Below, in pieces: positions 2,217 through 50,292 of a stretch of DNA of 64,000 nt (position 1 is its first letter; every line of letters begins with the position of its first letter). The translations under genes were made by a program, and so were the position numbers. The DNA comes from Escherichia phage KBNP1711: sequence record NC_023593.1; one strand, written 5' to 3'. Below the pieces are notes generated by a model. It was not told where the DNA came from, ran no database searches, and was given only the letters and a program-made list of their open reading frames with translations.

Positions 2217-2321
2217 AGGAAACGGGGAGCTGTCGAAGATTCTTTTACAGTGTACCTCAGTATAGAGGGGAGGGTTCTTTTCGCGAGGGATCTCTCCCTT
2301 TTTTTAATTTTTGGAGGAAGT

Positions 2322-3863
2322 ATGTCATTAGATAAAGAAGTATACGAAGCTCTCACTGGAGATAAACTAACAGTAGAGGAAAAGAAGCATCTGTTAGGAA
2401 TATTAAAAGAGCGAGATACATGGAGAAAGTATAATAAGATTCTAGCTTTCAAAGCATATGACTTTCAGAAGAAGTTTTATGAAGCAGGACTGAAGCACCG
2501 CTTTAGATTCCTGTGTGCAGCTAACCGTGTTGGTAAATCTTATAGTGAGGCATACGAGTTTGCTTGTCATGTCACAGGTCGCTACCCAACTTGGTGGACT
2601 GGATACAAATTTAAAAGACCTATCCTTGCATGGGCAGTCGGGATTACAGGGGATTCCACAAGAAAGGTTTTGCAAAAGGAATTGTTTGGCACACCTATTG
2701 GAAAAGATACAGATCTTATTGGTACAGGTGTGATTCCTCGTGATGCTATTGTCATAGACACAATAGAACGAGATGGTAACAAGCTTCAGATCGTACAAAT
2801 CAAACATCAAAACGAAAGGGGAGAGTTTGACGGCCTGAGCACATTAGAATTCCGTTCAACCCAACAGGGTGAACATACATTGATGGGTGCTACAGTTGAT
2901 TATATTTGGCTGGATGAAGAAGATCCTTATGAAAGTATGGCAATCTTTTCTCAGTGTGTAACACGTACACTCACAACTAAAGGTTTAGTAACGATTACAG
3001 CTACACCAGAGAACGGTTTAACAGAGCTGGTGGACAAGTTTATGAAAGGTGAAGGTGATGCAGATACAGGTTCTCTGTATTTCCAGAATGCTTCTTGGTG
3101 GGATGCACATGTTGACTTAGGTGGTCACATCTCAGACAAGGATATAAAGGATATGACCGAAGGTATTCCTGCTTGGCAGCTAGAGATGCGCTCCAAAGGT
3201 ATGCCTCTGTTGGGTTCAGGTTTGATTTATGATGTATCTGATGACTCAGTTAAGTGTGAACCATTCGATATCCCTGATACATGGAAACGTGTGTGTGCGG
3301 TTGATATCGGTATTGATCACCCTACTGCTGCTGTTTGGTCGGCTTACGATGCTAACACTGATACTATTTACATCTATGACTGCTATAAAGAAGGTGGTTA
3401 CACTCCAGCTTACCATGCTCCGGCTATTAATGGTCGAGGACAGTGGATTCCGGTGGTGTTACCTCACGATGCTGACAACCTTGAGAAAGGTAGTGGTTCT
3501 TCAGTGGCCCAATTCTATAGGAATGCAGGGGTTAACGTACAATCTGAGACCTTCTACAACAAGATTGGAATGGATGGTAAAAAGAACTTCTTTGTAGAGC
3601 CGGGAATTACAGATATTCGTGAACGTATGATGTCAGGTCGATTCAAGATCTTTAATACTGCTTCCTGTGCTAAACTCTTTGAAGAAAAAGCACGATACCA
3701 CCGTAAGGTTGGTAAGATTGTTAAAGAACATGATGACTTGATGGATGCGATGCGTTATTCTGCTTGCTCCGTAACACATAGAGGTCGTAGTAAACACGAT
3801 GCTAGCTACGGAAGTTCGTCGCTTTATCAAGAAAATATTAACAGATGGAATTCGAGTTACTAA
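2322..3863 (+). CDS. terL: terminase large subunit
   Basis: Walker A-like 'AANRVGKS', nuclease-domain acidic residues; GGAGGAAG RBS before ATG 2322 (track ORF starts 2250). Confidence 0.85.
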   Translation: MSLDKEVYEALTGDKLTVEEKKHLLGILKERDTWRKYNKILAFKAYDFQKKFYEAGLKHRFRFLCAANRVGKSYSEAYEFACHVTGRYPTWWTGYKFKRPILAWAVGITGDSTRKVLQKELFGTPIGKDTDLIGTGVIPRDAIVIDTIERDGNKLQIVQIKHQNERGEFDGLSTLEFRSTQQGEHTLMGATVDYIWLDEEDPYESMAIFSQCVTRTLTTKGLVTITATPENGLTELVDKFMKGEGDADTGSLYFQNASWWDAHVDLGGHISDKDIKDMTEGIPAWQLEMRSKGMPLLGSGLIYDVSDDSVKCEPFDIPDTWKRVCAVDIGIDHPTAAVWSAYDANTDTIYIYDCYKEGGYTPAYHAPAINGRGQWIPVVLPHDADNLEKGSGSSVAQFYRNAGVNVQSETFYNKIGMDGKKNFFVEPGITDIRERMMSGRFKIFNTASCAKLFEEKARYHRKVGKIVKEHDDLMDAMRYSACSVTHRGRSKHDASYGSSSLYQENINRWNSSY

Positions 3864-4006: not shown

Positions 4007-6250
4007 ATGGCTAAGAAGAATTTTAGTGAAGATGTATTGGATGAACTGCGCGTTGATCTTCAACGTCGATTCAACTACGCTCAAGGCTACGTAGATATCG
4101 CTGTAAAAGGCTATGCTCGTGAAGCTTGGGAATATTTTTATGGGAACCTTCCTGCTCCAGTTACAGCTGGTAGTTCTAGTTGGGTCGATCGTACAGTATG
4201 GGAATCAGTAAACGGTACACTCCAAGATATCATCAACGTATTCTGTTCAGGTGATGAAGCAGTAACGTTTGTAGCGGACAACCAAGCAGATAGTGATGCA
4301 GCTGACGTAGCAACTAAGCTCGTTAACCAAATCCTGTTGCGTGATAATCCGGGATACAATGTTATTTCCTCAGCGGCACAAGAGTGTCTTGTCACTCGTA
4401 ACTCTTTTATCAAATACTATTGGGATGAACAAACCTCCACTCAGACAGAAGAGGCAGAGGGCGTACCTCCAGAAGCACTTGCTGCATATGTGCAGGGATT
4501 AGAGGCTGGCGGTCTTGAAGATTTAGAAGTATTTACCACTGATAATGATGACGGTACAGTGGACGTCAAGGTTAACTACAAACAAACAGTAAAGCGTGTG
4601 AAGGTTGAGTATGTCCCTTCCGAACAAATCTTTGTAGATGAACATGCAACCAGCTTTGCTGATGCACAATATTTCTGTCATCGTGTACGTCGTTCTAAAG
4701 AAGATCTCGTAGCTATGGGTTTCCCTAAAGATGAGATTGAAGCTTTTAACGATTGGACGGATACGATGGACACTACCCAATCGACTGTTGCTTGGTCACG
4801 TACTGACTGGCGTCAGGATATAGATTCAGATATCGGTGTAGACACTGATGATATCGCTTCTATGGTTTGGGTTTATGAACATTACATCCGTACTGGTGTA
4901 CTGGATAAGAATAAAGAAGCAAAACTCTATCAGGTTATTCAAGCAGGTGAGCATATTCTCAGTTGTGAAGAAGTAACCAGTATTCCGTTCGTAACTTTCT
5001 GCCCATACCCAATTCCGGGTTCATTTTATGGTCAGTCTGTCTATGACATTACGAAAGATATCCAAGATTTACGTACCGCACTGGTTCGTGGTTATATTGA
5101 TAACGTAAACAATGCTAACTATGGTCGTTATAAAGCGATTGTAGGGGCGTATGACCGTCGCTCTTTGCTAGACAACCGTCCGGGTGGCGTTGTTGAAATG
5201 GAGCGTCAGGATGCGATTGACTTATTCCCATACCATAATCTACCTCAGGGTATCGATGGTCTGTTGGGAATGTCTGAAGAATTGAAAGAAACTCGTACAG
5301 GTGTCACTAAGCTCGGAATGGGTATTAACCCTGATGTGTTTAAGAATGACAACGCCTATGCTACTGTAGGTTTGATGATGAATGCAGCTCAGAACCGTCT
5401 CCGTATGGTATGTCGTAACATTGCACATAACGGTATGGTTGAGTTAATGCGTGGAATCTACAACCTTATCAGAGAGAATGGTGAAACCCCTTTACAGGTT
5501 CAAACACCTCGTGGAATGGTTCAGGTAAATCCAAAACAATTACCACCTCGTCACAATTTACAAGTTGTTGTAGCTATCTCTCCTAATGAGAAAGCAGAAC
5601 GTGCACAGAAATTGATTAGTCTGAAACAGCTGATTGCTGCTGACCAACAGTTAGCACCTCTCTTTACTCTGGAGCAAGATCGTTATATGACTGCACAAAT
5701 CTTTGAGTTGATGGGAATTAAGGATACTCATAAATACTTAATGCCTCTTGAGCAGTATCAGCCACCGCAGCCGTCTCCAATGGAAATTCTCCAGCTGGAA
5801 ATGACTAAAGCTCAGGTTGAGAACGTACAGGCTTCTTCTCAGAAGATGATTGCTGATGCATTCGACCAGCGTGAACGTACTACATTCGAACAGCAGAAAG
5901 CTGCCGATGAGTTCAGTCTGAAGCAGGAAGAGTTGCAGTTCAAGCAAGAAAATGCAGCAGACGTAATGACCTTAGAGAATCGTAAGGAAGACAATAGTGC
6001 TACTCTGGAACAAGCTAAACACAAGTTGTCTCTTCTTCAGCAGCAGGTTCGTCAGTATGAATCCGTACTGAAAGAACTACAGATGGTCATGGACCATCAG
6101 GTTGACCAAGAGAAGATTGTTGCTCAAGCACAAATTCAGGATAAGACTTTGGAACTCCAAAAGAAAGAGTCAAATGTAACTAAGAAAGACCAACAGAAGA
6201 CTCTAAAAGATTCTAGGATTCCTAACAGACGTCTTGGTAGTAAAAAATAA
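4007..6250 (+). CDS. portal protein
   Basis: 747-aa ORF directly after terL with coiled-coil C-terminus; GAGGGAGAG RBS. Confidence 0.75.
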   Translation: MAKKNFSEDVLDELRVDLQRRFNYAQGYVDIAVKGYAREAWEYFYGNLPAPVTAGSSSWVDRTVWESVNGTLQDIINVFCSGDEAVTFVADNQADSDAADVATKLVNQILLRDNPGYNVISSAAQECLVTRNSFIKYYWDEQTSTQTEEAEGVPPEALAAYVQGLEAGGLEDLEVFTTDNDDGTVDVKVNYKQTVKRVKVEYVPSEQIFVDEHATSFADAQYFCHRVRRSKEDLVAMGFPKDEIEAFNDWTDTMDTTQSTVAWSRTDWRQDIDSDIGVDTDDIASMVWVYEHYIRTGVLDKNKEAKLYQVIQAGEHILSCEEVTSIPFVTFCPYPIPGSFYGQSVYDITKDIQDLRTALVRGYIDNVNNANYGRYKAIVGAYDRRSLLDNRPGGVVEMERQDAIDLFPYHNLPQGIDGLLGMSEELKETRTGVTKLGMGINPDVFKNDNAYATVGLMMNAAQNRLRMVCRNIAHNGMVELMRGIYNLIRENGETPLQVQTPRGMVQVNPKQLPPRHNLQVVVAISPNEKAERAQKLISLKQLIAADQQLAPLFTLEQDRYMTAQIFELMGIKDTHKYLMPLEQYQPPQPSPMEILQLEMTKAQVENVQASSQKMIADAFDQRERTTFEQQKAADEFSLKQEELQFKQENAADVMTLENRKEDNSATLEQAKHKLSLLQQQVRQYESVLKELQMVMDHQVDQEKIVAQAQIQDKTLELQKKESNVTKKDQQKTLKDSRIPNRRLGSKK

Positions 6251-29300: not shown

Positions 29301-30766
29301 AAGCTAACAAGAACTCTCAGTATGAAGCAGCAGCTAAGCATCTACAAGCTCGTGAAGAACGTCTTACCTCTTTACGTAACAGAGCAGAAGCTCGTGCTCA
29401 AGCGAAAGCTACAGCAGAAGCTGAACGTCAGTCACTCGAAGCTATTGCTGGTCAGAAGACTGAGATAGAGAAGATGTTTGATGCGTTACCTAAACCTGTC
29501 CGCGAGGCTCAGGAAAGCCGTACTCTGAAACAGCTTGCAGCTCACCATGATAAGAACTCCCCTGTTCCTCCAGAACGTTTCCGTAGTATTATCGAACGTA
29601 TCCACAACGCAGAGTCTGACTACCTTGATCGTAAGCGTCGTCTCACTGATGCAGAGGAAGATGCTCGTGAAGCTAAGTGGAACAAGATGTATGAACAAGC
29701 AGAGGAGATGAACCGTAAGTTCGATATAGATGCTCGTGTATCTCGTGATAAGAGCCTCAAAGAAGCCCAGGAGCGACAGAATGATCTCATGGCAGTACAA
29801 CGCCAACGTGATGACATTCACAGCCGTCTGGTGCGTTCTATCGAAGATAAGGGCATACCTAAAGCTGATGCTGAAGCATTTGCTGGTTCTTATATGGATA
29901 ATCGTTATGCTCTTCTTGAAAAACCTATGACCCCTACCGAACATCAGAATGCTCGTGCACGTATTGAGTCCGATGTAGAGAAGTTTGCTAAGAAGTATGA
30001 AAGCTTGTCTCCTATCGAGAAAGACGTGGTTAAGATTACTGGTGATGTGGAAGGTAAACTGGATGGGTTGGATGCTGAGACTGTGAAGGCAGTTGAGGAA
30101 GCTAGGAAGGTTGACTCTGATATTAAGAAACTTCAGGATGAAGAGTTGGAGATGGAGAAAGTCCGTTCAGCTTTACCTGATGATGAAAAGTCTCAGGCAA
30201 ATTCCGACATTCTGGAAAGCATTAAAAAACAAGAAGATAAGTTTGCAGGGAAGGTTGAGAAGGCATTCTTGGAAGGCAAGGACTTGAAGGAACTGGCTAG
30301 TGTTGCAGAGGTTCTGGATAGGGTTCATGGTGCTGACAAGGCTGGGAACAACCGTAGATTTGTTCGTGCTCTACAGACTGCTGCTGACAACAAGAAGAAG
30401 TATGGTGATAATCCGGTAGCTTGGTTTAGTGCTGATGATTACTCTGCTATTGCTAAACTTGGTGCTGCATCAGCGGGTGGTAACAAATCAAGAGCGTTGG
30501 AGAAGATCTTTGGTTCTACAGCAGATCAAGCTAAGGCTAAGCTTTTGGGGAGAGATGATGTAGCGAAGATTAGACGTGTGATTGAAGCGAATCCTGAAAT
30601 CAAGATTCCTTCTTACAAGACTACTACTCGTCAAGAGTATTTACAGTTCTTGGAGAAGTATAATGATGAGGGAGTGTTGAAAGTCAAACGTGGTTCTCTG
30701 TCTGACAAGTTGGAAAGGAATAAGCGTCAAGCTAGACTTCGTGTTAGAGTTCGCTCGAAAGAGTAA
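26345..30766 (+). CDS. large internal virion/ejection protein
   Basis: 1473 aa; Gly/Ala-rich hydrophobic segments then a long A/E/K/R coiled-coil region. Confidence 0.5.
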   Translation: MANIKSWEEASKSPKYMNATPEQQAQLREQYKAAGGTIPEDKPVQPQQEERGLVGEFAQGVSNAIESGGASIAASTARGLGGLVEMGENVLGSQTSYGKRIQDNAKQVLEKRMAGIEDGFGKTAGQYAGVAADIGLTVANPALAAGVIAGREAGRAYADQTPEEGEDKSVLDAALVGGANFAAQKILPGFTGTSESTLGRIGQSAASNAVAGAKGGALVGAAEAQNKYGDDTTLANVLEGAIDEGVAGAAYGGAIGGVHGAISRPSPQVFDKTPENVKTDISAEDEAIRSAKNADELREAYSQADTANTASALNLLDQNDFRITDAVAMDSPAAQRILNTDQTRAEKAASSLTERSNIPGLNPLASPSKVKGKAFADNEHNQKQAVAMKDAMADYTKDNTKTLNDVLDNLDRELNDLRVRGDFTGSAIDIKNQTRNDRDFIDAYKNFYTEANRFKARDGEDFNNFVEKATELQKLADNVSPEMKKAIGGLKKLKGMPEGFNPIQDAFTLNNTAKLMSNQDRGWTTLTDDGFREASSPSFVMNTLGAAKYALNRFSSERARSQRARQQDSNSEAIRSLARGDLEVARARSAAAKAREEMEAEPVVDDVQFKTQADDQNMAGSEPSSPATVTEDFSPSPAPLTARDLVAQRRAIRQAEQRRAEEEAQAAQNAPVEPEAPAETLPTRNPLEERRVQEAEMEQQRAAEEAAKAPETPVEEPTAKAEPLPARAPKAPKEAAPEVKPATGVERLAAMSTAARQATKNRAERFARSLYTAGAKAKATAENFLAYKGDPKELMRRIRQEDQANNAARHEEMARNQLASQQGIAAAKSNRVRSAFSDWVKERGLPSEIASKALRAEERGLDGNVSSLDSLKRRAERMYQKERDDEFDRMYREALEENKAFDKKDAPKLKDQKAEFQSEIDSLLESEPLRPAQKDAMRKMMSDFVDGKFKAAEKAGREEALEVGQMKDLWDGFINTYNREVGMFNKANKNSQYEAAAKHLQAREERLTSLRNRAEARAQAKATAEAERQSLEAIAGQKTEIEKMFDALPKPVREAQESRTLKQLAAHHDKNSPVPPERFRSIIERIHNAESDYLDRKRRLTDAEEDAREAKWNKMYEQAEEMNRKFDIDARVSRDKSLKEAQERQNDLMAVQRQRDDIHSRLVRSIEDKGIPKADAEAFAGSYMDNRYALLEKPMTPTEHQNARARIESDVEKFAKKYESLSPIEKDVVKITGDVEGKLDGLDAETVKAVEEARKVDSDIKKLQDEELEMEKVRSALPDDEKSQANSDILESIKKQEDKFAGKVEKAFLEGKDLKELASVAEVLDRVHGADKAGNNRRFVRALQTAADNKKKYGDNPVAWFSADDYSAIAKLGAASAGGNKSRALEKIFGSTADQAKAKLLGRDDVAKIRRVIEANPEIKIPSYKTTTRQEYLQFLEKYNDEGVLKVKRGSLSDKLERNKRQARLRVRVRSKE

Positions 30767-30770
30767 ACAG

Positions 30771-30812
30771 GAAAAGCCCCCAAGGATATTCTCCAAGGGG
30801 GCTTTATTTTTA
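30771..30812. terminator. bidirectional terminator at convergence of the two gene blocks
   Basis: 'aaaagccccc...gggggcttt' hairpin flanked by A-run and T-run. Confidence 0.55.
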
Positions 30813-31007
30813 AATCTTTTTGTAGGTAATCGTTCCTTCTTTAACTGCCCTCTCATAAGATTCTTTAAACTTACGCATAGCAGCTATTTTACCTTCTCGG
30901 ATTTTATCATAATCAGGTTTATCTGTTTTCATGGGTAGTATCCTATTTAAGTTTTAGAAACCATCAAATTCGTCATACATCCCAGCACTCTTCATTCATA
31001 CAACCTC

Positions 31008-31262
31008 CTAAATTAAATCATAATATTGAATAATATCTTTCAGAGCAAAGTCACGAATCTGATCTTTCTCTGTATCGTAGGCTGTCATAATCCAGCAAGG
31101 ATTCCCGTCATTGTGATAAACGGAAACACCAACTGAAGTTCGGATAGGAATAACGGCTCGGTCTGCAACCTCACCTCTCCAATTACGATAGCGAAAGCGA
31201 AGAATTTGTTTCGTAGAGACTGGAGCATCAGTTGTTTCCTTTTTTAAATTGTTTTCTAGCAT
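31008..31262 (-). CDS. hypothetical protein
   Basis: Track ORF 31008..31370 trimmed to an internal Met to reduce overlap with the HNH gene. Confidence 0.25.
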   Translation of the reverse strand: MLENNLKKETTDAPVSTKQILRFRYRNWRGEVADRAVIPIRTSVGVSVYHNDGNPCWIMTAYDTEKDQIRDFALKDIIQYYDLI

Positions 31263-31629
31263 TATTTTCTTCTTGAGTTTTAGTTTTATGGCAAGGTTCT
31301 TTACAAAGCACTTGGAATCCGTGTTTCTCAACAAGTGCCCTCTGAATAATTTCATCCCAAGTAGCTTCATGGTCGATAGGGACCAGAGGCTCTATATGGT
31401 CAATAGCCATTTCTTTAACAGGGTGGTCGTTGCCACACATAGCACATTGATAGTGCATTGCCAGCTTCCCTGTCTTGGGGTTTATCTTGCGTTCTGTTTG
31501 AGCATCTTTAAGAGCATCGAACATAGGCTTCCACTTCCTAGTCAGAGAACGAATCCCTGACTTGATGAAGGAATTGTATCGAGCTTCTGTCCAAGTGCCA
31601 CTACAGCGAGTCTTCTCAACCTTCGCCAT
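31228..31629 (-). CDS. HNH endonuclease
   Basis: 'CAMCGNDHP...DHIEPL...CKEPCH' HNH/zinc-finger motif. Confidence 0.7.
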   Translation of the reverse strand: MAKVEKTRCSGTWTEARYNSFIKSGIRSLTRKWKPMFDALKDAQTERKINPKTGKLAMHYQCAMCGNDHPVKEMAIDHIEPLVPIDHEATWDEIIQRALVEKHGFQVLCKEPCHKTKTQEENNARKQFKKGNN

Positions 31630-31840
31630 AACCTATATCCATATCATCCTCCTGCCAGACTCGTTTATTAACACGGTGACTAACCTTGTCAGCCTTGGGG
31701 ATACGACCGGTACGTTGATCAAACAGTTGGTGTTTAATCTTCTGATCTTTACGAGTTTCACGGTTAGGTGAAGTTTCATCATAAGTACGGTAGTTGAATT
31801 TGTTACCCATTATCAATATCCTTATTCCAAATTTTATCAA
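31616..31840 (-). CDS. hypothetical small protein
   Basis: ORF track only. Confidence 0.25.
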   Translation of the reverse strand: MIKFGIRILIMGNKFNYRTYDETSPNRETRKDQKIKHQLFDQRTGRIPKADKVSHRVNKRVWQEDDMDIGYGEG

Positions 31841-32642
31841 GCCATGACCACTCGAAGAGGTCTTCTGGTGTTTGACCTACGAATAGGAGACGAGCATTTT
31901 CAAGCATCTTTTCTTCCCATTCTGTATCAAACTTCTTATAATATTCCATTCGCACTATATGATAAAGAGTCCACTTATCATTTACACCTTGTAAAAGGTT
32001 GATAGCGGCTTTCTTTCCAACCCCTTGACGACGGAGTTGTAACTTACCTCCCCACATAACTTCCTCACGTTCACCACAACCGGGAATGTTATCTGTTCCA
32101 TCACCAATGAGCATTTGATAAAAGAAGTTTTGCCAAGCAACCTCATCTGATACATAGTGAGGAGGAACCTCTTTCTGTCTTTCTCCACATGCCCACCGAT
32201 AGTGCCATCCGGGAGTTATCAATAAGTCTTTGTCTCGTGTACAGATGATAGTGTTCTTGTCAGTTCGCTGTCTTTCTGCTAATGCATCATCAGCTTCTCT
32301 TCCATAAACATCTACATACTCGTAATTGTTTTTAATGTAGTCACCAACGTTCTGCCAGTGGAAAGGTCTTTCTCCCGGAGGTCGGTTGGCTTTGTATCCT
32401 TGCTGCTTTGCTACATCAAAACGGAAATTACCGCCTTCGCTGAAGTAGAAGATTGTCTTTCGACAGCCAGCGCGAGCAATGATTGTATCAAGTTTGTTTT
32501 GAAGTCGTTCAATTAGAAACCCATAATCTACTGGTGTACGTCCTGTATCCAGAAAAGGATGCTCCTGAGTCAGAGCACCCACTTCGTATCGGAGAACATC
32601 AGCATCCACTAGAGCTACTTCAGGATACTTAACGTCTTCCAT
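31803..32642 (-). CDS. 5'-3' exonuclease / flap endonuclease
   Basis: 'LVDADVL', 'GREADDALA', 'TRDKDLL', 'IGDGTDNIPG' acidic motifs of FEN/PIN nucleases. Confidence 0.6.
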   Translation of the reverse strand: MEDVKYPEVALVDADVLRYEVGALTQEHPFLDTGRTPVDYGFLIERLQNKLDTIIARAGCRKTIFYFSEGGNFRFDVAKQQGYKANRPPGERPFHWQNVGDYIKNNYEYVDVYGREADDALAERQRTDKNTIICTRDKDLLITPGWHYRWACGERQKEVPPHYVSDEVAWQNFFYQMLIGDGTDNIPGCGEREEVMWGGKLQLRRQGVGKKAAINLLQGVNDKWTLYHIVRMEYYKKFDTEWEEKMLENARLLFVGQTPEDLFEWSWLDKIWNKDIDNG

Positions 32643-32643
32643 A

Positions 32644-33180
32644 TCACTCCCCTAAAAGTTTACGAACTTCTTTCTTGAATGTTTCATACTCTTCAGGGTA
32701 TTCAAACCCACACTCTAACATTGCATAGTGAACAACCTTAAGCAAGTCTTGAACCTTGTTCTTATCTTTGTGTCGATAAGCATACTTGATCATGTTACAT
32801 TGCTGGAAATTAAGCTGAGGGTTAGCTGCATAGAATTCAATAGGTTGAATCTTCTTGGAGTCAGGGTCATAATGAGCACCGCCAACCATTACATCTAGTG
32901 CTGGACTTCTTTGGCTAGTCTTCTCAGTTGTATTCTTAAAACTGACCACAGGAACAGAAGAGTAAACTATATACTCTTCCCCTACTGGTGGTTTTACTCT
33001 TAGTCCACGCATGGCATATTCAATCTTTATGTCAGCGGAACCTGAAGCGACCTCTTCAATAGATTTTCGATAGCTGTCAATAACTGCCCTTAGCATAGAG
33101 ATTGTTTTGGTCATATCTTTTACTTTCTCATTCAGTACAACAATCTCTGATTCTTTGAAATCGAACAAATTCATTTCCAC
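32644..33180 (-). CDS. DUF3310-like phage protein
   Basis: 'QPIEF...NMIKYAYRHKDK' resembles the DUF3310 signature (recalled). Confidence 0.3.
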   Translation of the reverse strand: MEMNLFDFKESEIVVLNEKVKDMTKTISMLRAVIDSYRKSIEEVASGSADIKIEYAMRGLRVKPPVGEEYIVYSSVPVVSFKNTTEKTSQRSPALDVMVGGAHYDPDSKKIQPIEFYAANPQLNFQQCNMIKYAYRHKDKNKVQDLLKVVHYAMLECGFEYPEEYETFKKEVRKLLGE

Positions 33181-35794: not shown

Positions 35795-35803
35795 TATACA
35801 TTA
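35795..35803 (-). promoter_or_regulatory. TAATGTATA motif (- strand)
   Basis: + strand 'tatacatta'; 58 nt upstream of SSB-like gene start. Confidence 0.4.
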
Positions 35804-39284: not shown

Positions 39285-39766
39285 TCAATGTGTGTGATTC
39301 CAGTTTAATCCTATCTGACAATCAGATGCCAGAGGACATTCCATCTTGAGGTACTCACCAGCTTTCTTAACACAAAGCTCTGTAAGCTCTTTTAGCTTTT
39401 GTGCATCATTACGGTGAACAGAGAACTGCCCTTCATCGTGCATGTCAATAACCTTCGCACAACGAACACCATCACGCTCAATCCACTTGTTAAGGAAAAG
39501 CATGGCATACTTCATAACAATCGCACCAGCACTCTGTAATAGGGTATTCAGTGCTTTATGAACCATTACCTTACCTGTTGCATCACGTCTCATTGTAACA
39601 CGACGACCATCAACACCCAAGATATAACCTTGAGCTGCCTTCTCTGTCATACGTTCAATAAGAATTGCAATACAAGGATTCTCTGCCAAGAAACGTGCTC
39701 TCATTACTGCACCTTCTTCAGAGCCTCCACCAACGATAGAACCGAGCTTAGCATCACCTGCCCCAT
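39285..39766 (-). CDS. DNA polymerase (family A), exon 2
   Basis: 'GAGDAKLGSIVGG...ALNTLLQSAGA...HDE' matches the T7 DNA polymerase C-terminus; frame open upstream of track start 39704. Confidence 0.7.
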
Positions 39767-40547
39767 CAATAGTTCAAGCAAAGGCGCTACTCTTTGCTCC
39801 GTTCTCTTATGAACTGCTTACAGTTTCCTGTAAGATCGGACTATATCTTCATCTCCACCTTTACGTGCTGAGAGACAGGCGCTTCCGTAACACTTGTTAC
39901 GTACTCCCTTCCGGGATAGTCTCTGAACTTTCCGTGACACAAACTTTTCTACATAGATCAATGAACTGAGCATCAGATAGTTTACCTTTTGCATTATTCA
40001 CTTCCCAAGTTACCCATTGGACATTTCCAATTTCGTAACCTTTCGAATTATCCTTCCTATCTAAAGAAAGTTTATTCGGATGTCCGCTGACGAAAGATAG
40101 TGAATCTCCTGTCAAGGCACATTTGTAGTTTTGCTGAGAAAGAAGCTCGAATAAATAGTCTTGAGTAATCGTGAACTCAAAACCCCTTTCTCTAGCTCTG
40201 TGATGGGAGTTGTGATATCTCTCACGAACCGCTCCACCCCAAGTTTGTCGATATTGTCCCATAGCAGCAGATGCTGCACTTCTGTTTCGACGTCTCCACT
40301 CATTTGAAGCAATGAGAGCACAATTTTTTACATTGACATTGCTTTCCATCTTTACTCTTAGATGAATTATGGAAACTGTCGAGTGGCTTTTCTTCGCCAC
40401 AGCTTGAACATATCTTTGTCATAAACACCTCCTTGTGTTGATGTTTATGTCACGGCTTAGCTGCTGATTGGCATATCTTTCGACTTAGCTTTCCAGCAAT
40501 TCACCTGTTTTGCTTCTGCACATTTCTATGCAGTGAACCAATTATTT
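39767..40547 (-). mobile_element. group I intron (putative) interrupting DNA polymerase motif B
   Basis: Exon 1 ends on U, intron ends on G; splicing restores 'KTFIYAFNYGAGD'. Confidence 0.55.
39897..40400 (-). CDS. intron-encoded HNH homing endonuclease
   Basis: 'SLDRKDNSKGYEIGNVQWVTWEVNNAKG' HNH-type motif; ORF lies within the intron. Confidence 0.6.
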   Translation of the reverse strand: MAKKSHSTVSIIHLRVKMESNVNVKNCALIASNEWRRRNRSAASAAMGQYRQTWGGAVRERYHNSHHRARERGFEFTITQDYLFELLSQQNYKCALTGDSLSFVSGHPNKLSLDRKDNSKGYEIGNVQWVTWEVNNAKGKLSDAQFIDLCRKVCVTESSETIPEGST

Positions 40548-41910
40548 AGTTAAAGGCATATATAAATGTCTTCGCATTGTCACGAGTAGGAAGACCAGCA
40601 AGTCTCTGATTATGAGAATGGATATCACCTTCTAACAGAATATCACGATACATAACAGCAGAAGCTAAACCACGTTCAGCTAATGCTTTCTTACCAGCGT
40701 TACCTTCTGCAATTGCTTCAGCAAGCATGTCTCTACACTCTTTAATGAGGTAGTGAGCAAGCATACGAAGCTCTAATCCAGAACCATCATAACCTAGGAA
40801 GAGTTCTCTACCAGCTGGTACATAATACTTATATAACCCTACTGGTTTGTCTTTCTTTCCGGGTTTTCCACGTTCGTAGATAACGTTTGTATTTTTTCGT
40901 AAGTAACACCCATCAGGGATATTGTTGGTAATGATGAAAGGATAGTTATGACTATCATCTGTGGAGTAGTTAGATTGAAATAAACTCCTACACTCGTGAC
41001 CAAACAGACCGCGAGAAGGAATATTAACAACAATGCGATGTTTAAAACGAAATGTCGGAGTAGCGCAGCTATTAGCTTCCGCTGAGAGTTTACCATCTGG
41101 ACGTTCCTTATCAATCAGTCCATTAATCAAGCCTAGTCTGTGAGCCGCTACAACACGTCTCTTAAGCAGACTTCCCACCTTACCTAGATCACCCTCAAGA
41201 CCTTCTTCAAGAGTCTCTTCGAGGTTTGTAGGAGCTGTGGGCCACTTGTTCGAAGTAGCTAATGCTCTCTTAATTTCATCAAAGGTTACAGGTTTCTTCC
41301 TGTTAGGGTTTAAACCTAAACCAAAGACATAAGCCTTCATGTAGTTGACAGTTTTGTGACGAAAGTGCTTATCCAAGAATTTCTTGATATCAGCATCAAC
41401 CATCTGAGCTGTCTGTCGCTCTTTCTCATTGCCACGCATCCAAGAGTTGTACCATTCTTGATACGTTCCACACTTACGCAAGGCTCGCTTAATCTCAAAT
41501 GTGTTCCAAGGCTTCTTAGATGTATTAAATTCTGGAGGAAGAAAACCTTCATCCATCAGTGCTTCTTTAACTCGTGCATCCTTTGATGGGTCAAAGTCAA
41601 CATACTCAACACAAGTAAAAGCTCCACCGATATCTTCCCTCTTTAACCCCACTCTGTCACAATATAATTGAGGCCACTTCTGAAGAGCACCAGTCTTCTT
41701 AAAGGGTTTCATGTAAGTAGAACCATCAACCCTCATCTTAGGTAACAGAGGAATCAGCTCTCTGTCGATGTTAACGATAATCTCTCTGAGAAGGTGAACA
41801 TACCACCGTGCATTCCTCCGATTAAAGTTGACACCACTCTTCGCTTGCTTTGAAATTATATCAGCGACAGTCATCTCCGTTAAGAACGGAAGTACATCAG
41901 GGTTCTCCAT
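40548..41910 (-). CDS. DNA polymerase (family A), exon 1
   Basis: Motif A 'DGSGLELRMLAHY'; start of motif B 'RDNAKTFIY'; AAGGAG RBS. Confidence 0.7.
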
Positions 41911-41925
41911 CACCCTCTCCTTTTA

Positions 41926-43251: not shown

Positions 43252-43260
43252 TATACATTA
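43252..43260 (-). promoter_or_regulatory. TAATGTATA motif (- strand)
   Basis: + strand 'tatacatta' upstream of 42901..43215. Confidence 0.45.
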
Positions 43261-48267: not shown

Positions 48268-48467
48268 TATCTGTCAACCGATTCAGGGACAAACTGCATT
48301 ACACAGACCTGATTACGAGGAAGGTTTATTTCACAAGCGGCTTTTCTATCAGCAACCTTAGATGACGAGTTAGGGCCAATTTGAGCCATCATTAATCCCA
48401 TAGCTAACATGCCGAGGATTACACCAATTGCTAAAGATGCTACAGTTTCTTGTTTCATCTTGATCAC
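48267..48467 (-). CDS. small membrane protein
   Basis: One hydrophobic segment 'LAIGVILGMLAMGLMMA'. Confidence 0.3.
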   Translation of the reverse strand: MIKMKQETVASLAIGVILGMLAMGLMMAQIGPNSSSKVADRKAACEINLPRNQVCVMQFVPESVDR

Positions 48468-48997
48468 ACCCCTTTAGATGCAACTACACCTTCAGAATTA
48501 TTATAACGACCCTTCACTGCATATGAATGTTCCCCTGCATGAGAGTGCTCAAACATAACCATCTGACCAACACGCATACCAGCACGAACTCGTAAGCTAT
48601 GATGCTTGGTTACGTTATGGAATTCAAATGTCAGCTTACTGCTATTAAACCCTGCGTCTGCCCACCCAGCGTGGAGATGGTTCAAGCCACAACGAGCCAT
48701 CGAAGACCGCAGGACAAACAAACTGGAGATGTTATCTGGAAGGTTAAACTCTTCCATCGAGTGAGCTAAGAAGAATTGTCCCGGAGTAATGATAATACCG
48801 TCTTCAGGGATTTTTACTTCTTTCCACTTGAGATTTTCTTTCGCATCAATGTCAACAATCCCATCAGCCTGTTCTTCAATAAGGATAGTATCACCAATAC
48901 GGATATCCACACTAGCAGCGTTAACATACTTATGCTCCGCATCCAGAAAACCGTTATCGATAACGTCGTGTAATTCCATGCTTCCTAATAAACTCAT
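48464..48997 (-). CDS. dcd: dCTP deaminase (dCTP deaminase/dUTPase superfamily)
   Basis: 'VDIRIGD', 'LRSSMARCGL', 'HAGWADAGF' match E. coli Dcd motifs (recalled). Confidence 0.65.
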   Translation of the reverse strand: MSLLGSMELHDVIDNGFLDAEHKYVNAASVDIRIGDTILIEEQADGIVDIDAKENLKWKEVKIPEDGIIITPGQFFLAHSMEEFNLPDNISSLFVLRSSMARCGLNHLHAGWADAGFNSSKLTFEFHNVTKHHSLRVRAGMRVGQMVMFEHSHAGEHSYAVKGRYNNSEGVVASKGV

Positions 48998-49011
48998 TCT
49001 TATTCCTTATG

Positions 49012-50292
49012 TTAATCTGTGATACTGTCGCTTTCGTCAACCCAGACTGGATTATTAATCTGTCCTAAACGACGAGCTGATGTTTCGTTAATAGAGTTAA
49101 CCCCTGCTGTGCGAGGGTTTGTGTACCACGGTCGGACTATGCTACCCGACTGAATTGCTTGGTTTGCTTCTACATGCCACCTGTTTGATACCGTGTTGGC
49201 TTCAAAGTTACCACCCGCTCCACCACTGATAGGCACAGCTTGAGCTGGTTGATTTACTCGGTTAGTTCCTGCCCCAAAGGCTGCTGCAAATTCAGACACA
49301 CGTGCACTAAATGAAGAACGAGCACGCTGAGGAGGTGATATATCATTTCGTGTATCTACTGCACGAGGCATAGCCCAAGTATCATCTGTTGAGATATCAG
49401 GGGTAGGCTCTTGCTCTAGAGGTTGAAGATTAGCTGTCCATTGACTATTCAGTATACGATAGAAATCTGCACCATAACCACTTCGGATAACATCCTCTCT
49501 GACACCAAAGAAGCGACTGATATCCCCACCGATTCGGGCTAGTTTGTCATTGTATGCAGGTATGATTATTCCACCCTCTGTCACTAAATCAGAGACACGA
49601 CTTGTTGTAAGTGGTGAAGTGATCCAACAATAATAATCAGTAATGTGACCATCGTATCCGAAGAATGCAATCTCTGCATCAGGCCATTTCTTGTGGACAT
49701 ATGCCACTTCACGGTTAGAACAAACAGGGATTGCACCTGTTTCAGTCATTGCATAGAAGCCGTCAGAAGAGAACCAAAGTGAATCTAGTGCTAAGAATCC
49801 ACGACACACGCTCGGGAAAGTAGCAGCCAGCGCCCCAAGTGAGGTAGGTTCATTGAACATTAACTGAATCTTTGCACTCTGATAATTAATCTCTAGGATA
49901 TCTACAAAATTCAAAGAAGACCCAGGGGCATATTGATTATTACTTCGTCCAATATCCTGCTCAATGAGAAGAGATCTTGTTTCAACACCATGAGCCTCTG
50001 CCCACTCTTTGAAATCTTCAAGGAACAAGCGAGCCTTAGCTCGCCACATCGACCGATCAGTTACAGACTGTCTCGGCAATCCACCCTCTGTAGTGATGAG
50101 AAAGATATCAATGTCGTGAGGTTCACGCGTCTGAAAGATTGCATCCCTAACAGCACCACCTGCAATGATAGGGTACACACCATCAGGGATTAAACGGTTT
50201 GCAATCAACTCGTTAATTAACGTAAGACCAGACACAAGCTGCGGACTATCATCAATCCGACGACGAATTAGTGCATTAGGGATATTATACAT
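49012..50292 (-). CDS. nucleotidyltransferase (CCA-adding/poly(A) polymerase head-domain type)
   Basis: 'IIAGGAVRDAIF...HDIDIFL' matches the 'GGxVRD...DxD' active site. Confidence 0.5.
   Translation of the reverse strand: MYNIPNALIRRRIDDSPQLVSGLTLINELIANRLIPDGVYPIIAGGAVRDAIFQTREPHDIDIFLITTEGGLPRQSVTDRSMWRAKARLFLEDFKEWAEAHGVETRSLLIEQDIGRSNNQYAPGSSLNFVDILEINYQSAKIQLMFNEPTSLGALAATFPSVCRGFLALDSLWFSSDGFYAMTETGAIPVCSNREVAYVHKKWPDAEIAFFGYDGHITDYYCWITSPLTTSRVSDLVTEGGIIIPAYNDKLARIGGDISRFFGVREDVIRSGYGADFYRILNSQWTANLQPLEQEPTPDISTDDTWAMPRAVDTRNDISPPQRARSSFSARVSEFAAAFGAGTNRVNQPAQAVPISGGAGGNFEANTVSNRWHVEANQAIQSGSIVRPWYTNPRTAGVNSINETSARRLGQINNPVWVDESDSITD

What the first reader, a model, noticed from the sequence alone, without database searches (positions are those of the whole stretch)
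31228..31629. Free-standing HNH endonuclease at the start of the early-strand block
A second HNH-type protein ('CAMCGNDHP...DHIEPL...CH'), separate from the intron-encoded one, lies at the distal end of the - strand block. Free-standing HNH genes are often mobile or assist terminase in DNA cutting; here it is not adjacent to terL.
Basis: partly seen in the sequence, partly recalled or inferred. Interest (0 to 1): 0.25.

Follow-up and report, generated by a model that had tools for sequence, protein, structure and literature searches.

The report
Core phage HNH nuclease, not mobile
The gene is a real HNH nuclease, but it is a fixed, already-annotated core gene of phiEco32-like phages that sits beside the replication exonuclease, so it is not a mobile homing endonuclease and probably not a terminase helper; it is ordinary.

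Summary

- About 97 Kuravirus-type records carry the neighbouring exonuclease, and about 97 carry this gene.
- It is entry #20 in the published 63-protein Kuravirus core proteome.
- Its dN/dS is 0.07-0.17.
- It is 100% identical in phage Bas89, whereas seven of Bas89's other eight HNH genes are absent from this window.

It is the phiEco32 phi32_30 orthologue and lies at the 3' end of the middle-gene (not early) cluster. It sits in an overlapping cassette: T7 gp1.7-like kinase, FEN-type 5'-3' exonuclease, 64-aa ORF, HNH, WYL-like ORF.

The exonuclease-HNH pairing recurs in 64 of 71 testable IMG/VR loci and in Zobellviridae and Chaseviridae.

The WYL-like partner's homologues overlap endonuclease VII genes in rV5-like phages.

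My best inference is a nuclease that works with the exonuclease on branched or host DNA, in an endo VII / T7 gp3-like role. This is not proven. The gene is already known, and interest is low.

The parts
31228..31629 (-). Core HNH nuclease, 133 aa; orthologue of phiEco32 phi32_30, EP335 ORF27 and YF01 gp25. Zn-finger C62/C65 + C109/C113; catalytic D77-H78 and H114.
31008..31262 (-). WYL-like small protein, 84 aa. Its start overlaps the HNH 3' end by 35 nt. It is also present in about 97 relatives.
   Evidence: Pfam WYL E=5.4e-5, 23.6 bits against a cutoff of 21.8; EP335 ORF26 has the same 35-nt overlap; tblastn gives 97 records >=60%; homologues overlap EndoVII genes in rV5-like phages.
31616..31810 (-). 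64-aa basic ORF of unknown function (phrog_10643), a core gene. It overlaps the exonuclease stop by 8 nt and the HNH start by 14 nt.
   Evidence: core proteome entry #21.
31803..32642 (-). FEN-type 5'-3' exonuclease, 279 aa, the conserved upstream neighbour of the HNH.
   Evidence: PHROG 107 E=1.6e-66; Pfam 5_3_exonuc_N E=7e-6, below threshold; core proteome entry #22; upstream on the same strand within 1.3 kb in 67/80 IMG/VR loci.
32644..33180 (-). DUF3310-type nucleotide (dNMP) kinase immediately upstream of the exonuclease. I recall this as the T7 gp1.7 type; that was not tested here.
   Evidence: Pfam DUF3310 E=2e-8; PHROG 26149 and 236 'nucleotide kinase'. A DUF3310-like ORF also lies 0.2-0.75 kb downstream of the HNH in about 15 distant loci.
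35795..35803 (-). Exact match to the phiEco32 gp36-dependent middle/late promoter element TAATGTATA, upstream of the phi32_40 homologue. It is the nearest candidate promoter upstream of the operon that ends with the HNH.
   Evidence: consensus and promoter positions from PMC8948821. A terminator-like hairpin at 34974-34957 lies in between, so co-transcription is inferred, not shown.

Best explanation
Shown: the gene encodes a catalytically intact, vertically inherited, non-mobile HNH (beta-beta-alpha-metal) nuclease. It is a core component of the middle-gene DNA-metabolism operon of phiEco32-like phages. It sits in an overlapping, presumably translationally coupled run: nucleotide kinase, FEN 5'-3' exonuclease, 64-aa ORF, HNH, WYL-like ORF. 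Inferred, and my commitment: it is the phage's general DNA-processing endonuclease, and it works with the FEN exonuclease. It nicks or cuts branched replication/recombination intermediates, the role T4 endonuclease VII and T7 gp3 play before packaging. As with T7 gp3+gp6, it may also open host DNA for exonucleolytic breakdown, with the resulting dNMPs recycled by the adjacent kinase. The small WYL-like protein is probably a nucleic-acid-binding partner or regulator of the nuclease. I put about 0.93 on 'core, non-mobile nuclease of the replication module' and about 0.4 on the specific endo VII / gp3-like role.
For: Core status: 97 records against 97 records; published core proteome; 100% aa identity in Bas89, while 7 of Bas89's other 8 HNH-type genes are missing from the window. 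Purifying selection: dN/dS 0.07-0.17, comparable to 0.02-0.09 for the exonuclease, and pairwise identities track the exonuclease (0.85 vs 0.88, 0.82 vs 0.81, 0.62 vs 0.57, 0.60 vs 0.56). Active site: C62, C65, D77, H78, C109, H114 and K117 are invariant and C113 is near-invariant down to 33% identity; confident HNH fold. Context: the FEN exonuclease lies upstream on the same strand within 1.3 kb in 67/80 IMG/VR loci, and in 64/71 of those with enough upstream sequence. The 5 of the 7 exceptions whose flanking ORFs were scanned lie among PolA, PD-(D/E)XK nuclease, DnaQ-like exonuclease, RNR, ThyX and metallophosphatase genes. The same polA...exo-(small ORF)-HNH order occurs in Zobellviridae (Vibrio 1.208.B, CVT22, O4), Chaseviridae (pAh6.2TG) and StenR_269. 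Endo VII link: homologues of the overlapping WYL-like ORF (35-47% id) overlap the 3' end of Pfam Endonuclease_7 genes in LL12, Iguana and pEp_SNUABM_01 and in 18/80 IMG/VR loci, in an exonuclease...EndoVII-WYL...dNMP kinase neighbourhood. No Holliday-junction resolvase, endo VII or T7-endo-I-type gene is annotated anywhere in Bas89 or CVT22. Timing: middle-gene cluster (PMC8948821).
Confidence: 0.5

Rival explanations
1. Host-DNA degradation and nucleotide salvage only. The HNH nicks host (possibly unmodified) DNA, the FEN exonuclease digests it to dNMPs, and the adjacent DUF3310 kinase re-phosphorylates them. There is no role in junction resolution.
For: Gene order kinase-exonuclease-HNH. A DUF3310-like ORF lies 0.2-0.75 kb downstream of the HNH in about 15 distant loci. 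RNR, ThyX and metallophosphatase are neighbours in the loci that lack the exonuclease. Gordonclarkvirinae are unusually resistant to restriction-modification systems and may carry a DNA modification (PMC11990801), which could allow self/non-self discrimination. The T7 gp3/gp6/gp1.7 precedent is from my own knowledge.
Against: I found no report of host DNA breakdown in kuravirus infection. No modification has been demonstrated. This reading does not explain the WYL-EndoVII parallel. It also overlaps with the best explanation, since T7 gp3 does both jobs.
Confidence: 0.2
2. Packaging accessory. An HK97 gp74 / GVE2-type HNH assists terminase in cutting concatemers, or nicks to regenerate the 193-bp direct terminal repeats.
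Against: It lies about 27 kb from terS/terL. In every distant locus examined it sits in the replication or nucleotide-metabolism module, not beside terminase. The 'terS' label was examined and rejected by Kuravirus authors, who assign terS to gp3 next to terL (PMC9965538). gp74-type HNHs are defined by adjacency to terminase in cos phages (Kala et al. 2014, cited), whereas these phages have DTRs.
Confidence: 0.15
3. Selfish free-standing homing endonuclease, possibly fixed or domesticated at this site.
For: It has an HNH catalytic domain and stands alone. These phages do carry many mobile HNH genes, and this very region is an insertion hot spot (Bas89_0021, phi32_31). At deep levels the gene is patchy: it is absent from 7-11, GAP52 and LAh_6.
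Against: There is no presence/absence polymorphism among about 97 close relatives. Purifying selection is strong. Reading frames overlap with both neighbours. It belongs to a different family (phrog_3106) from the polymorphic HNHs (phrog_99), with no BLASTP similarity to them. Pfam detects no homing-type DNA-binding module. Synteny with the exonuclease is conserved across several phage families.
Confidence: 0.03

Closest known systems
phiEco32 phi32_30 / EP335 ORF27 / YF01 gp25 'HNH endonuclease' (Kuravirus-group core protein, PHROG 3106)
   Same: It is the orthologue: 82-100% aa identity, the same 133-aa length, and the same position between the small ORF downstream of the 5'-3' exonuclease and the WYL-like ORF.
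   Different: Nothing of substance differs. In phiEco32 an extra phrog_99 HNH (phi32_31) is inserted just upstream; the window lacks it.
Geobacillus phage GVE2 HNH endonuclease (PDB 5H0M/5H0O) and the HK97 gp74-type terminase-associated HNH proteins
   Different: The gene is not next to terminase. The phages have DTR ends, not cos ends. There is an extra conserved N-terminal segment of about 40 aa (W13-T14-E15, R27, W33) and an inserted helix at 91-98. The canonical Asn is not conserved in this clade (G104 here, N in some relatives).
T4 endonuclease VII (gp49; Pfam PF02945) and T7 endonuclease I (gp3): packaging and recombination debranching nucleases
   Same: Both are small phage nucleases of the beta-beta-alpha-metal superfamily (endo VII) encoded in the replication/recombination module near an exonuclease. 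In rV5-like phages, endo VII is followed by an overlapping homologue of the same WYL-like ORF that follows this HNH.
Free-standing homing HNH endonucleases of kuraviruses (PHROG 99, e.g. phi32_31, Bas89_0021)
   Same: They share the HNH catalytic motif and the same genome neighbourhood.
   Different: Those are polymorphic between near-identical genomes (7 Bas89 HNH-type genes are absent from the window) and form their own similarity cluster. The target is invariantly present and unrelated to them by BLASTP.

Membership tests
HNH (beta-beta-alpha-metal) nuclease superfamily | Catalytic His at the end of beta-strand 1 (D-H), a metal-binding His/Asn on the alpha-helix, and often two CxxC pairs binding structural zinc | tested here: met
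   C62-x2-C65, D77-H78, C109-x3-C113-H114 are invariant or near-invariant in 25-28 homologues. PHROG 3106 E=1e-37. Pfam HNH and HNH_5 match only below threshold.
HNH (beta-beta-alpha-metal) nuclease superfamily | beta-beta-alpha fold | tested here: met
HNH (beta-beta-alpha-metal) nuclease superfamily | Metal-dependent DNA cleavage | not testable with these tools
   Needs biochemistry.
Free-standing homing endonuclease | Sporadic presence/absence among closely related genomes | tested here: not met
   97 vs 97 records; core proteome of 32 genomes; present at 100% identity in Bas89, whereas 7 other Bas89 HNH genes are absent from the window.
Free-standing homing endonuclease | Relaxed or patchy evolution relative to flanking host genes; gene inserted between, not coupled to, its neighbours | tested here: not met
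   dN/dS 0.07-0.17, comparable to the exonuclease; start and stop overlap both neighbours; synteny conserved across phage families.
Free-standing homing endonuclease | Site-specific cleavage of the endonuclease-lacking allele | not testable with these tools
   No empty allele was found among close relatives.
Terminase-associated HNH (HK97 gp74 type; Kala et al. 2014) | Gene adjacent to the terminase/portal genes | tested here: not met
   terL is at 2250-3863 and portal at 4007-6250; the HNH is about 27 kb away and lies in replication modules in all distant loci examined.
Terminase-associated HNH (HK97 gp74 type; Kala et al. 2014) | cos-type genome ends with an HK97-like packaging module | tested here: not met
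   The literature reports 193-bp direct terminal repeats in 30 group members (PMC9965538). The ends were not determined here.
Terminase-associated HNH (HK97 gp74 type; Kala et al. 2014) | Stimulates terminase-mediated cleavage or binds terminase | not testable with these tools
   Needs biochemistry.
Endonuclease VII family (Pfam PF02945) | Match to the Endonuclease_7 profile or fold | tested here: not met
Endonuclease VII family (Pfam PF02945) | Resolves four-way and branched DNA | not testable with these tools
   This is a functional analogy only, inferred from the shared WYL-like neighbour.

The most novel reading that the evidence does not exclude
The core HNH and the overlapping 84-aa WYL-like protein form a conserved two-protein debranching ('packaging and recombination') nuclease. 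In Gordonclarkvirinae-like phages it replaces endonuclease VII, whereas rV5-like phages pair the same WYL-like partner with a true endo VII. A stand-alone WYL domain would then be a previously unrecognised accessory subunit, acting as a branched-DNA or ssDNA sensor, for phage beta-beta-alpha-metal nucleases.
Probability: 0.25. Interest if true: 0.45.

Novelty: already known. Interest (0 to 1): 0.15.

Why it matters
As given, the finding matters little. The gene is already annotated as an HNH endonuclease in RefSeq and is listed, with function 'unknown', in a published core proteome. Three points have practical value.
1. Annotation: the recurrent GenBank label 'terminase small subunit' for this gene is wrong and should not be propagated.
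2. Separating kinds of HNH: these phages carry two different kinds of HNH gene. Many are polymorphic selfish ones (phrog_99), and one is fixed (phrog_3106). The fixed one belongs to a large family (more than 2,000 clusters at 50% identity) that travels with the FEN exonuclease across several phage families.
3. A testable hypothesis: the shared WYL-like neighbour of this HNH and of endo VII gives a cheap way to ask which enzyme debranches DNA in a widespread, therapeutically used but poorly studied phage group.

Tried and rejected
1. Homing/mobile reading: rejected (see the membership test).
2. Terminase small subunit label: rejected. The HNH fold, the distance from terL, and the literature assignment of terS to the gene next to terL all argue against it.
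3. Non-orthologous displacement test: I asked whether phages that keep the exonuclease but lack this HNH (7-11, LAh_6) carry a recognisable nuclease in its place. 7-11 gp044 is phrog_36539 of unknown function and shows no similarity to the HNH profile. The test was uninformative.
4. Rosetta-stone test: I looked for WYL-nuclease fusions among larger WYL-like proteins. Pfam showed only the WYL domain, plus one weak Lar-like hit. No support.
5. Neighbours of other small WYL-like ORFs: these were a thymidylate kinase, a transcription regulator or unknown. The WYL-nuclease link is therefore lineage-specific, not general.
6. HNH-versus-exonuclease identity correlation over distant loci: Pearson r is 0.93 but is driven by the few close relatives, and Spearman rho is 0.05, not significant. 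I do not use it as evidence.
7. Single-sequence PDB search gave only a spurious eIF3g hit; the profile was needed.
8. Literature searches for host DNA degradation by kuraviruses found nothing. One search failed on syntax.
9. The promoter consensus with one mismatch is not enriched over shuffles (16 against 17.9 expected). Only the exact matches at positions homologous to known phiEco32 promoters are meaningful.

Full report
**What the window is.** The 2-kb region around the finding is 97% identical to Escherichia phage EP335 (Gordonclarkvirinae, Nieuwekanaalvirus) and 95% identical to BASEL phage Bas89. It is about 80% identical to dozens of Kuravirus-type phages, including NJ01. The + strand carries the late genes: terL at 2250-3863, the SU10-type portal at 4007-6250, and onward to a 1473-aa protein ending at 30766. 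From 31008 upward the genes run on the - strand.

**The observation.** An ATG-initiated 133-aa ORF lies at exactly 31228-31629 (-) and contains the quoted motifs.
- It matches PHROG 3106 'HNH endonuclease' at E=1.2e-37. Pfam HNH and HNH_5 are only sub-threshold.
- Alignments of 25-28 homologues, down to 33% identity, show invariant C62, C65, D77, H78, Q106, C109, H114 and K117, and near-invariant C113. This is the zinc finger and catalytic set of an HNH nuclease.
- There is also a family-specific N-terminal signature (W13-T14-E15, R27, W33).
- AlphaFold2 gives a confident model (pLDDT 93.7).
- A profile search of PDB sequences also finds GVE2 HNH (E=1.4e-4).

- tblastn finds the protein at >=60% identity in 97 phage records, all Escherichia/Shigella kuravirus-type. 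The adjacent exonuclease is found at >=80% in 97 records.
- The published core proteome of 32 Kuravirus-like genomes lists '#20 HNH endonuclease, 402 nt, 133 aa, category Unknown'. It is followed by the small ORF (#21) and the 5'-3' exonuclease (#22). None of the other three HNH genes that paper counts in YF01 appears in the core list, including gp80, the only one I located in its gene table (PMC9965538 Table S4).
- Pairwise dN/dS is 0.07-0.17, comparable to 0.02-0.09 for the exonuclease. Protein identities track those of the exonuclease.
- Bas89 provides an internal control. It has nine HNH-type genes, but only two are present in the window: this one at 100% amino-acid identity, and the polA-intron ORF. 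The other seven are missing.
- The missing genes form their own similarity cluster. The two I scanned against PHROGs (phiEco32 gp31 and Bas89_0021) belong to phrog_99, and none of the cluster shows BLASTP similarity to the target.
- Such mobile HNHs are inserted right next to the target in other phages. phi32_31 lies between the small ORF and phi32_30 in phiEco32. Bas89_0021 lies in the junction with the late block.

The region is an insertion hot spot, but the target itself is fixed.

**Anatomy and context.** The gene sits in a run of overlapping - strand genes:
- a DUF3310-type nucleotide kinase (32644-33180);
- a FEN-type 5'-3' exonuclease (31803-32642);
- a 64-aa basic ORF (31616-31810), overlapping the exonuclease stop by 8 nt and the HNH start by 14 nt;
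- the HNH itself;
- an 84-aa WYL-like ORF (31008-31262), overlapping the HNH by 35 nt.

By homology to phiEco32, this is the middle-gene cluster (DNA polymerase, nucleotide metabolism, sigma factor), not the early one (PMC8948821). Exact copies of the gp36-dependent promoter element TAATGTATA lie on the - strand at 35795-35803, upstream of the phi32_40 homologue, and at 43252-43260. The gene is therefore at the transcriptional end of the block, not its start.

**Deep conservation.** The family is large: 2,164 clusters at 50% identity with E<=1e-10, nearly all small proteins matched end to end.
- In 80 IMG/VR loci the FEN exonuclease lies upstream on the same strand within 1.3 kb in 67. Among loci with enough upstream sequence the count is 64 of 71.
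- Of the seven exceptions, the five whose flanking ORFs I scanned lie among PolA, a PD-(D/E)XK nuclease, a DnaQ-like exonuclease, ribonucleotide reductase, ThyX or metallophosphatase genes.
- Annotated genomes show the same polA...exonuclease-(small ORF)-HNH order in Zobellviridae (Vibrio 1.208.B, Citrobacter CVT22, Pseudomonas O4), in Chaseviridae (Aeromonas pAh6.2TG) and in Stenotrophomonas phage StenR_269.
- CVT22 shares the entire phiEco32-like plan, including the sigma factor, the primase/helicase and the amidoligase/GATase cluster.
- The more closely related 7-11 and LAh_6 phages keep the exonuclease but lack this HNH.
- Where neighbours were annotated or scanned, they were replication or nucleotide-metabolism genes and none was a terminase. 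I did not screen the 80 IMG/VR loci systematically for terminase genes.

**An unexpected clue to function.** The WYL-like ORF (Pfam WYL, E=5.4e-5, above the gathering threshold) is also present in 97 close relatives.
- Its nearest homologues outside the group (35-47% identity) are small ORFs of rV5-like myoviruses.
- In LL12, Klebsiella phage Iguana and Erwinia phage pEp_SNUABM_01, these ORFs overlap the 3' end of a gene matching Pfam Endonuclease_7. The match is above the gathering threshold in LL12 and pEp_SNUABM_01 and just below it in Iguana.
- The neighbourhood there reads exonuclease ... EndoVII - WYL-like - polymerase exonuclease subunit ... dNMP kinase.
- Among 80 IMG/VR loci with the WYL-like domain, the upstream overlapping gene is an endo VII in 18 and the present HNH family in 7.
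- The remainder are larger WYL proteins or have unrelated or unknown neighbours.

The same small partner therefore follows two different beta-beta-alpha-metal nucleases in two phage lineages. No other junction resolvase is annotated in Bas89 or CVT22.

**Most likely mechanism.**
- Shown: an intact, selected, non-mobile HNH nuclease of the middle-phase DNA-metabolism operon, linked to the FEN exonuclease across phage families.
- Inferred: it is the phage's DNA-processing endonuclease. It cuts or nicks branched replication/recombination intermediates, as T4 endo VII and T7 gp3 do. It may also open host DNA for the exonuclease, with the adjacent kinase recycling dNMPs as in T7 gp3+gp6+gp1.7. Both T7 and T4 precedents are from my own knowledge.
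- The BASEL study reports that these phages are strikingly resistant to restriction-modification systems and may have modified DNA (PMC11990801). That would allow self/non-self discrimination, but this is speculation.
- The packaging-helper rival rests on similarity to GVE2 HNH and on the need to regenerate 193-bp terminal repeats. It has no support from genome context, and the 'terminase small subunit' label in some records was already rejected in the literature.

**Verdict.** The gene is already annotated and published as a core protein of unknown function. The exonuclease linkage across families and the shared WYL-like partner with endo VII are modest new leads. Interest is low.

Noticed in passing
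window 30767-31007; L002 4136-4639; L089 1053-1334: The junction between the convergent late (+) and middle (-) blocks is variable. The window has a 40-aa DUF5486 ORF at 30810-30932 (-). EP335 has only about 103 bp there. Bas89 has a 504-bp phrog_99 HNH gene, and phiEco32 has two small ORFs.
   Followed up: partly
window 39817-40557 (-): The polA gene is split (40546-41913 and 39285-39704). Two sub-threshold Rfam group I intron matches (E=2e-10 and 2e-6) flank an endonuclease ORF at 39897-40400. Relative to Bas89_0048, that ORF shows a 1-nt frame break near 40327-40331, so it may be N-terminally truncated or decaying here.
   Followed up: partly
L094 1418-2183; L095 1559-2237; L096 1504-2195; 18 of L097-L176: In rV5-like myoviruses a small WYL-like ORF, homologous to window 31008-31262, overlaps the 3' end of the endonuclease VII gene. 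I am not aware that this pairing has been described.
   Followed up: partly
L088 and L093 (Bas89 whole genome) versus the window: Bas89 is about 95% identical to the window but carries seven extra HNH-type genes absent from it, including one inside the COOH-NH2 ligase gene (annotated as a joined CDS). HNH load varies greatly between near-identical kuraviruses.
   Followed up: partly
window 9279, 21063, 26300, 35867 (+); 35795, 43252 (-): There are six exact copies of the phiEco32 gp36-dependent promoter element TAATGTATA. They include one upstream of the 1473-aa gene (26345) and a divergent pair at 35795/35867. A strong terminator-like hairpin lies at 34974-34957 (-), just after the phi32_40 homologue.
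   Followed up: no
window 48464-50292 (-): A dCTP deaminase (Pfam DCD E=1e-34) lies next to a 426-aa ORF that is annotated as a nucleotidyltransferase in Bas89. The BASEL paper links this pair to possible DNA modification and to the group's resistance to restriction-modification systems.
   Followed up: no
L177 (Citrobacter phage CVT22, whole genome): This Zobellviridae phage shares the overall phiEco32-like plan: a late + block, then a - block with an amidoligase/GATase/COOH-NH2 ligase cluster, primase/helicase, sigma factor, polA, exonuclease, small ORF and HNH. This suggests a deep common ancestry between the two groups.
   Followed up: no
L090 3809-4303 (Salmonella phage 7-11 gp044): In 7-11, which lacks the HNH, a 164-aa ORF of unknown function (phrog_36539) overlaps the 3' end of the exonuclease gene, at the position corresponding to the small ORF/HNH, and is followed by a DNA ligase.
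   Followed up: partly
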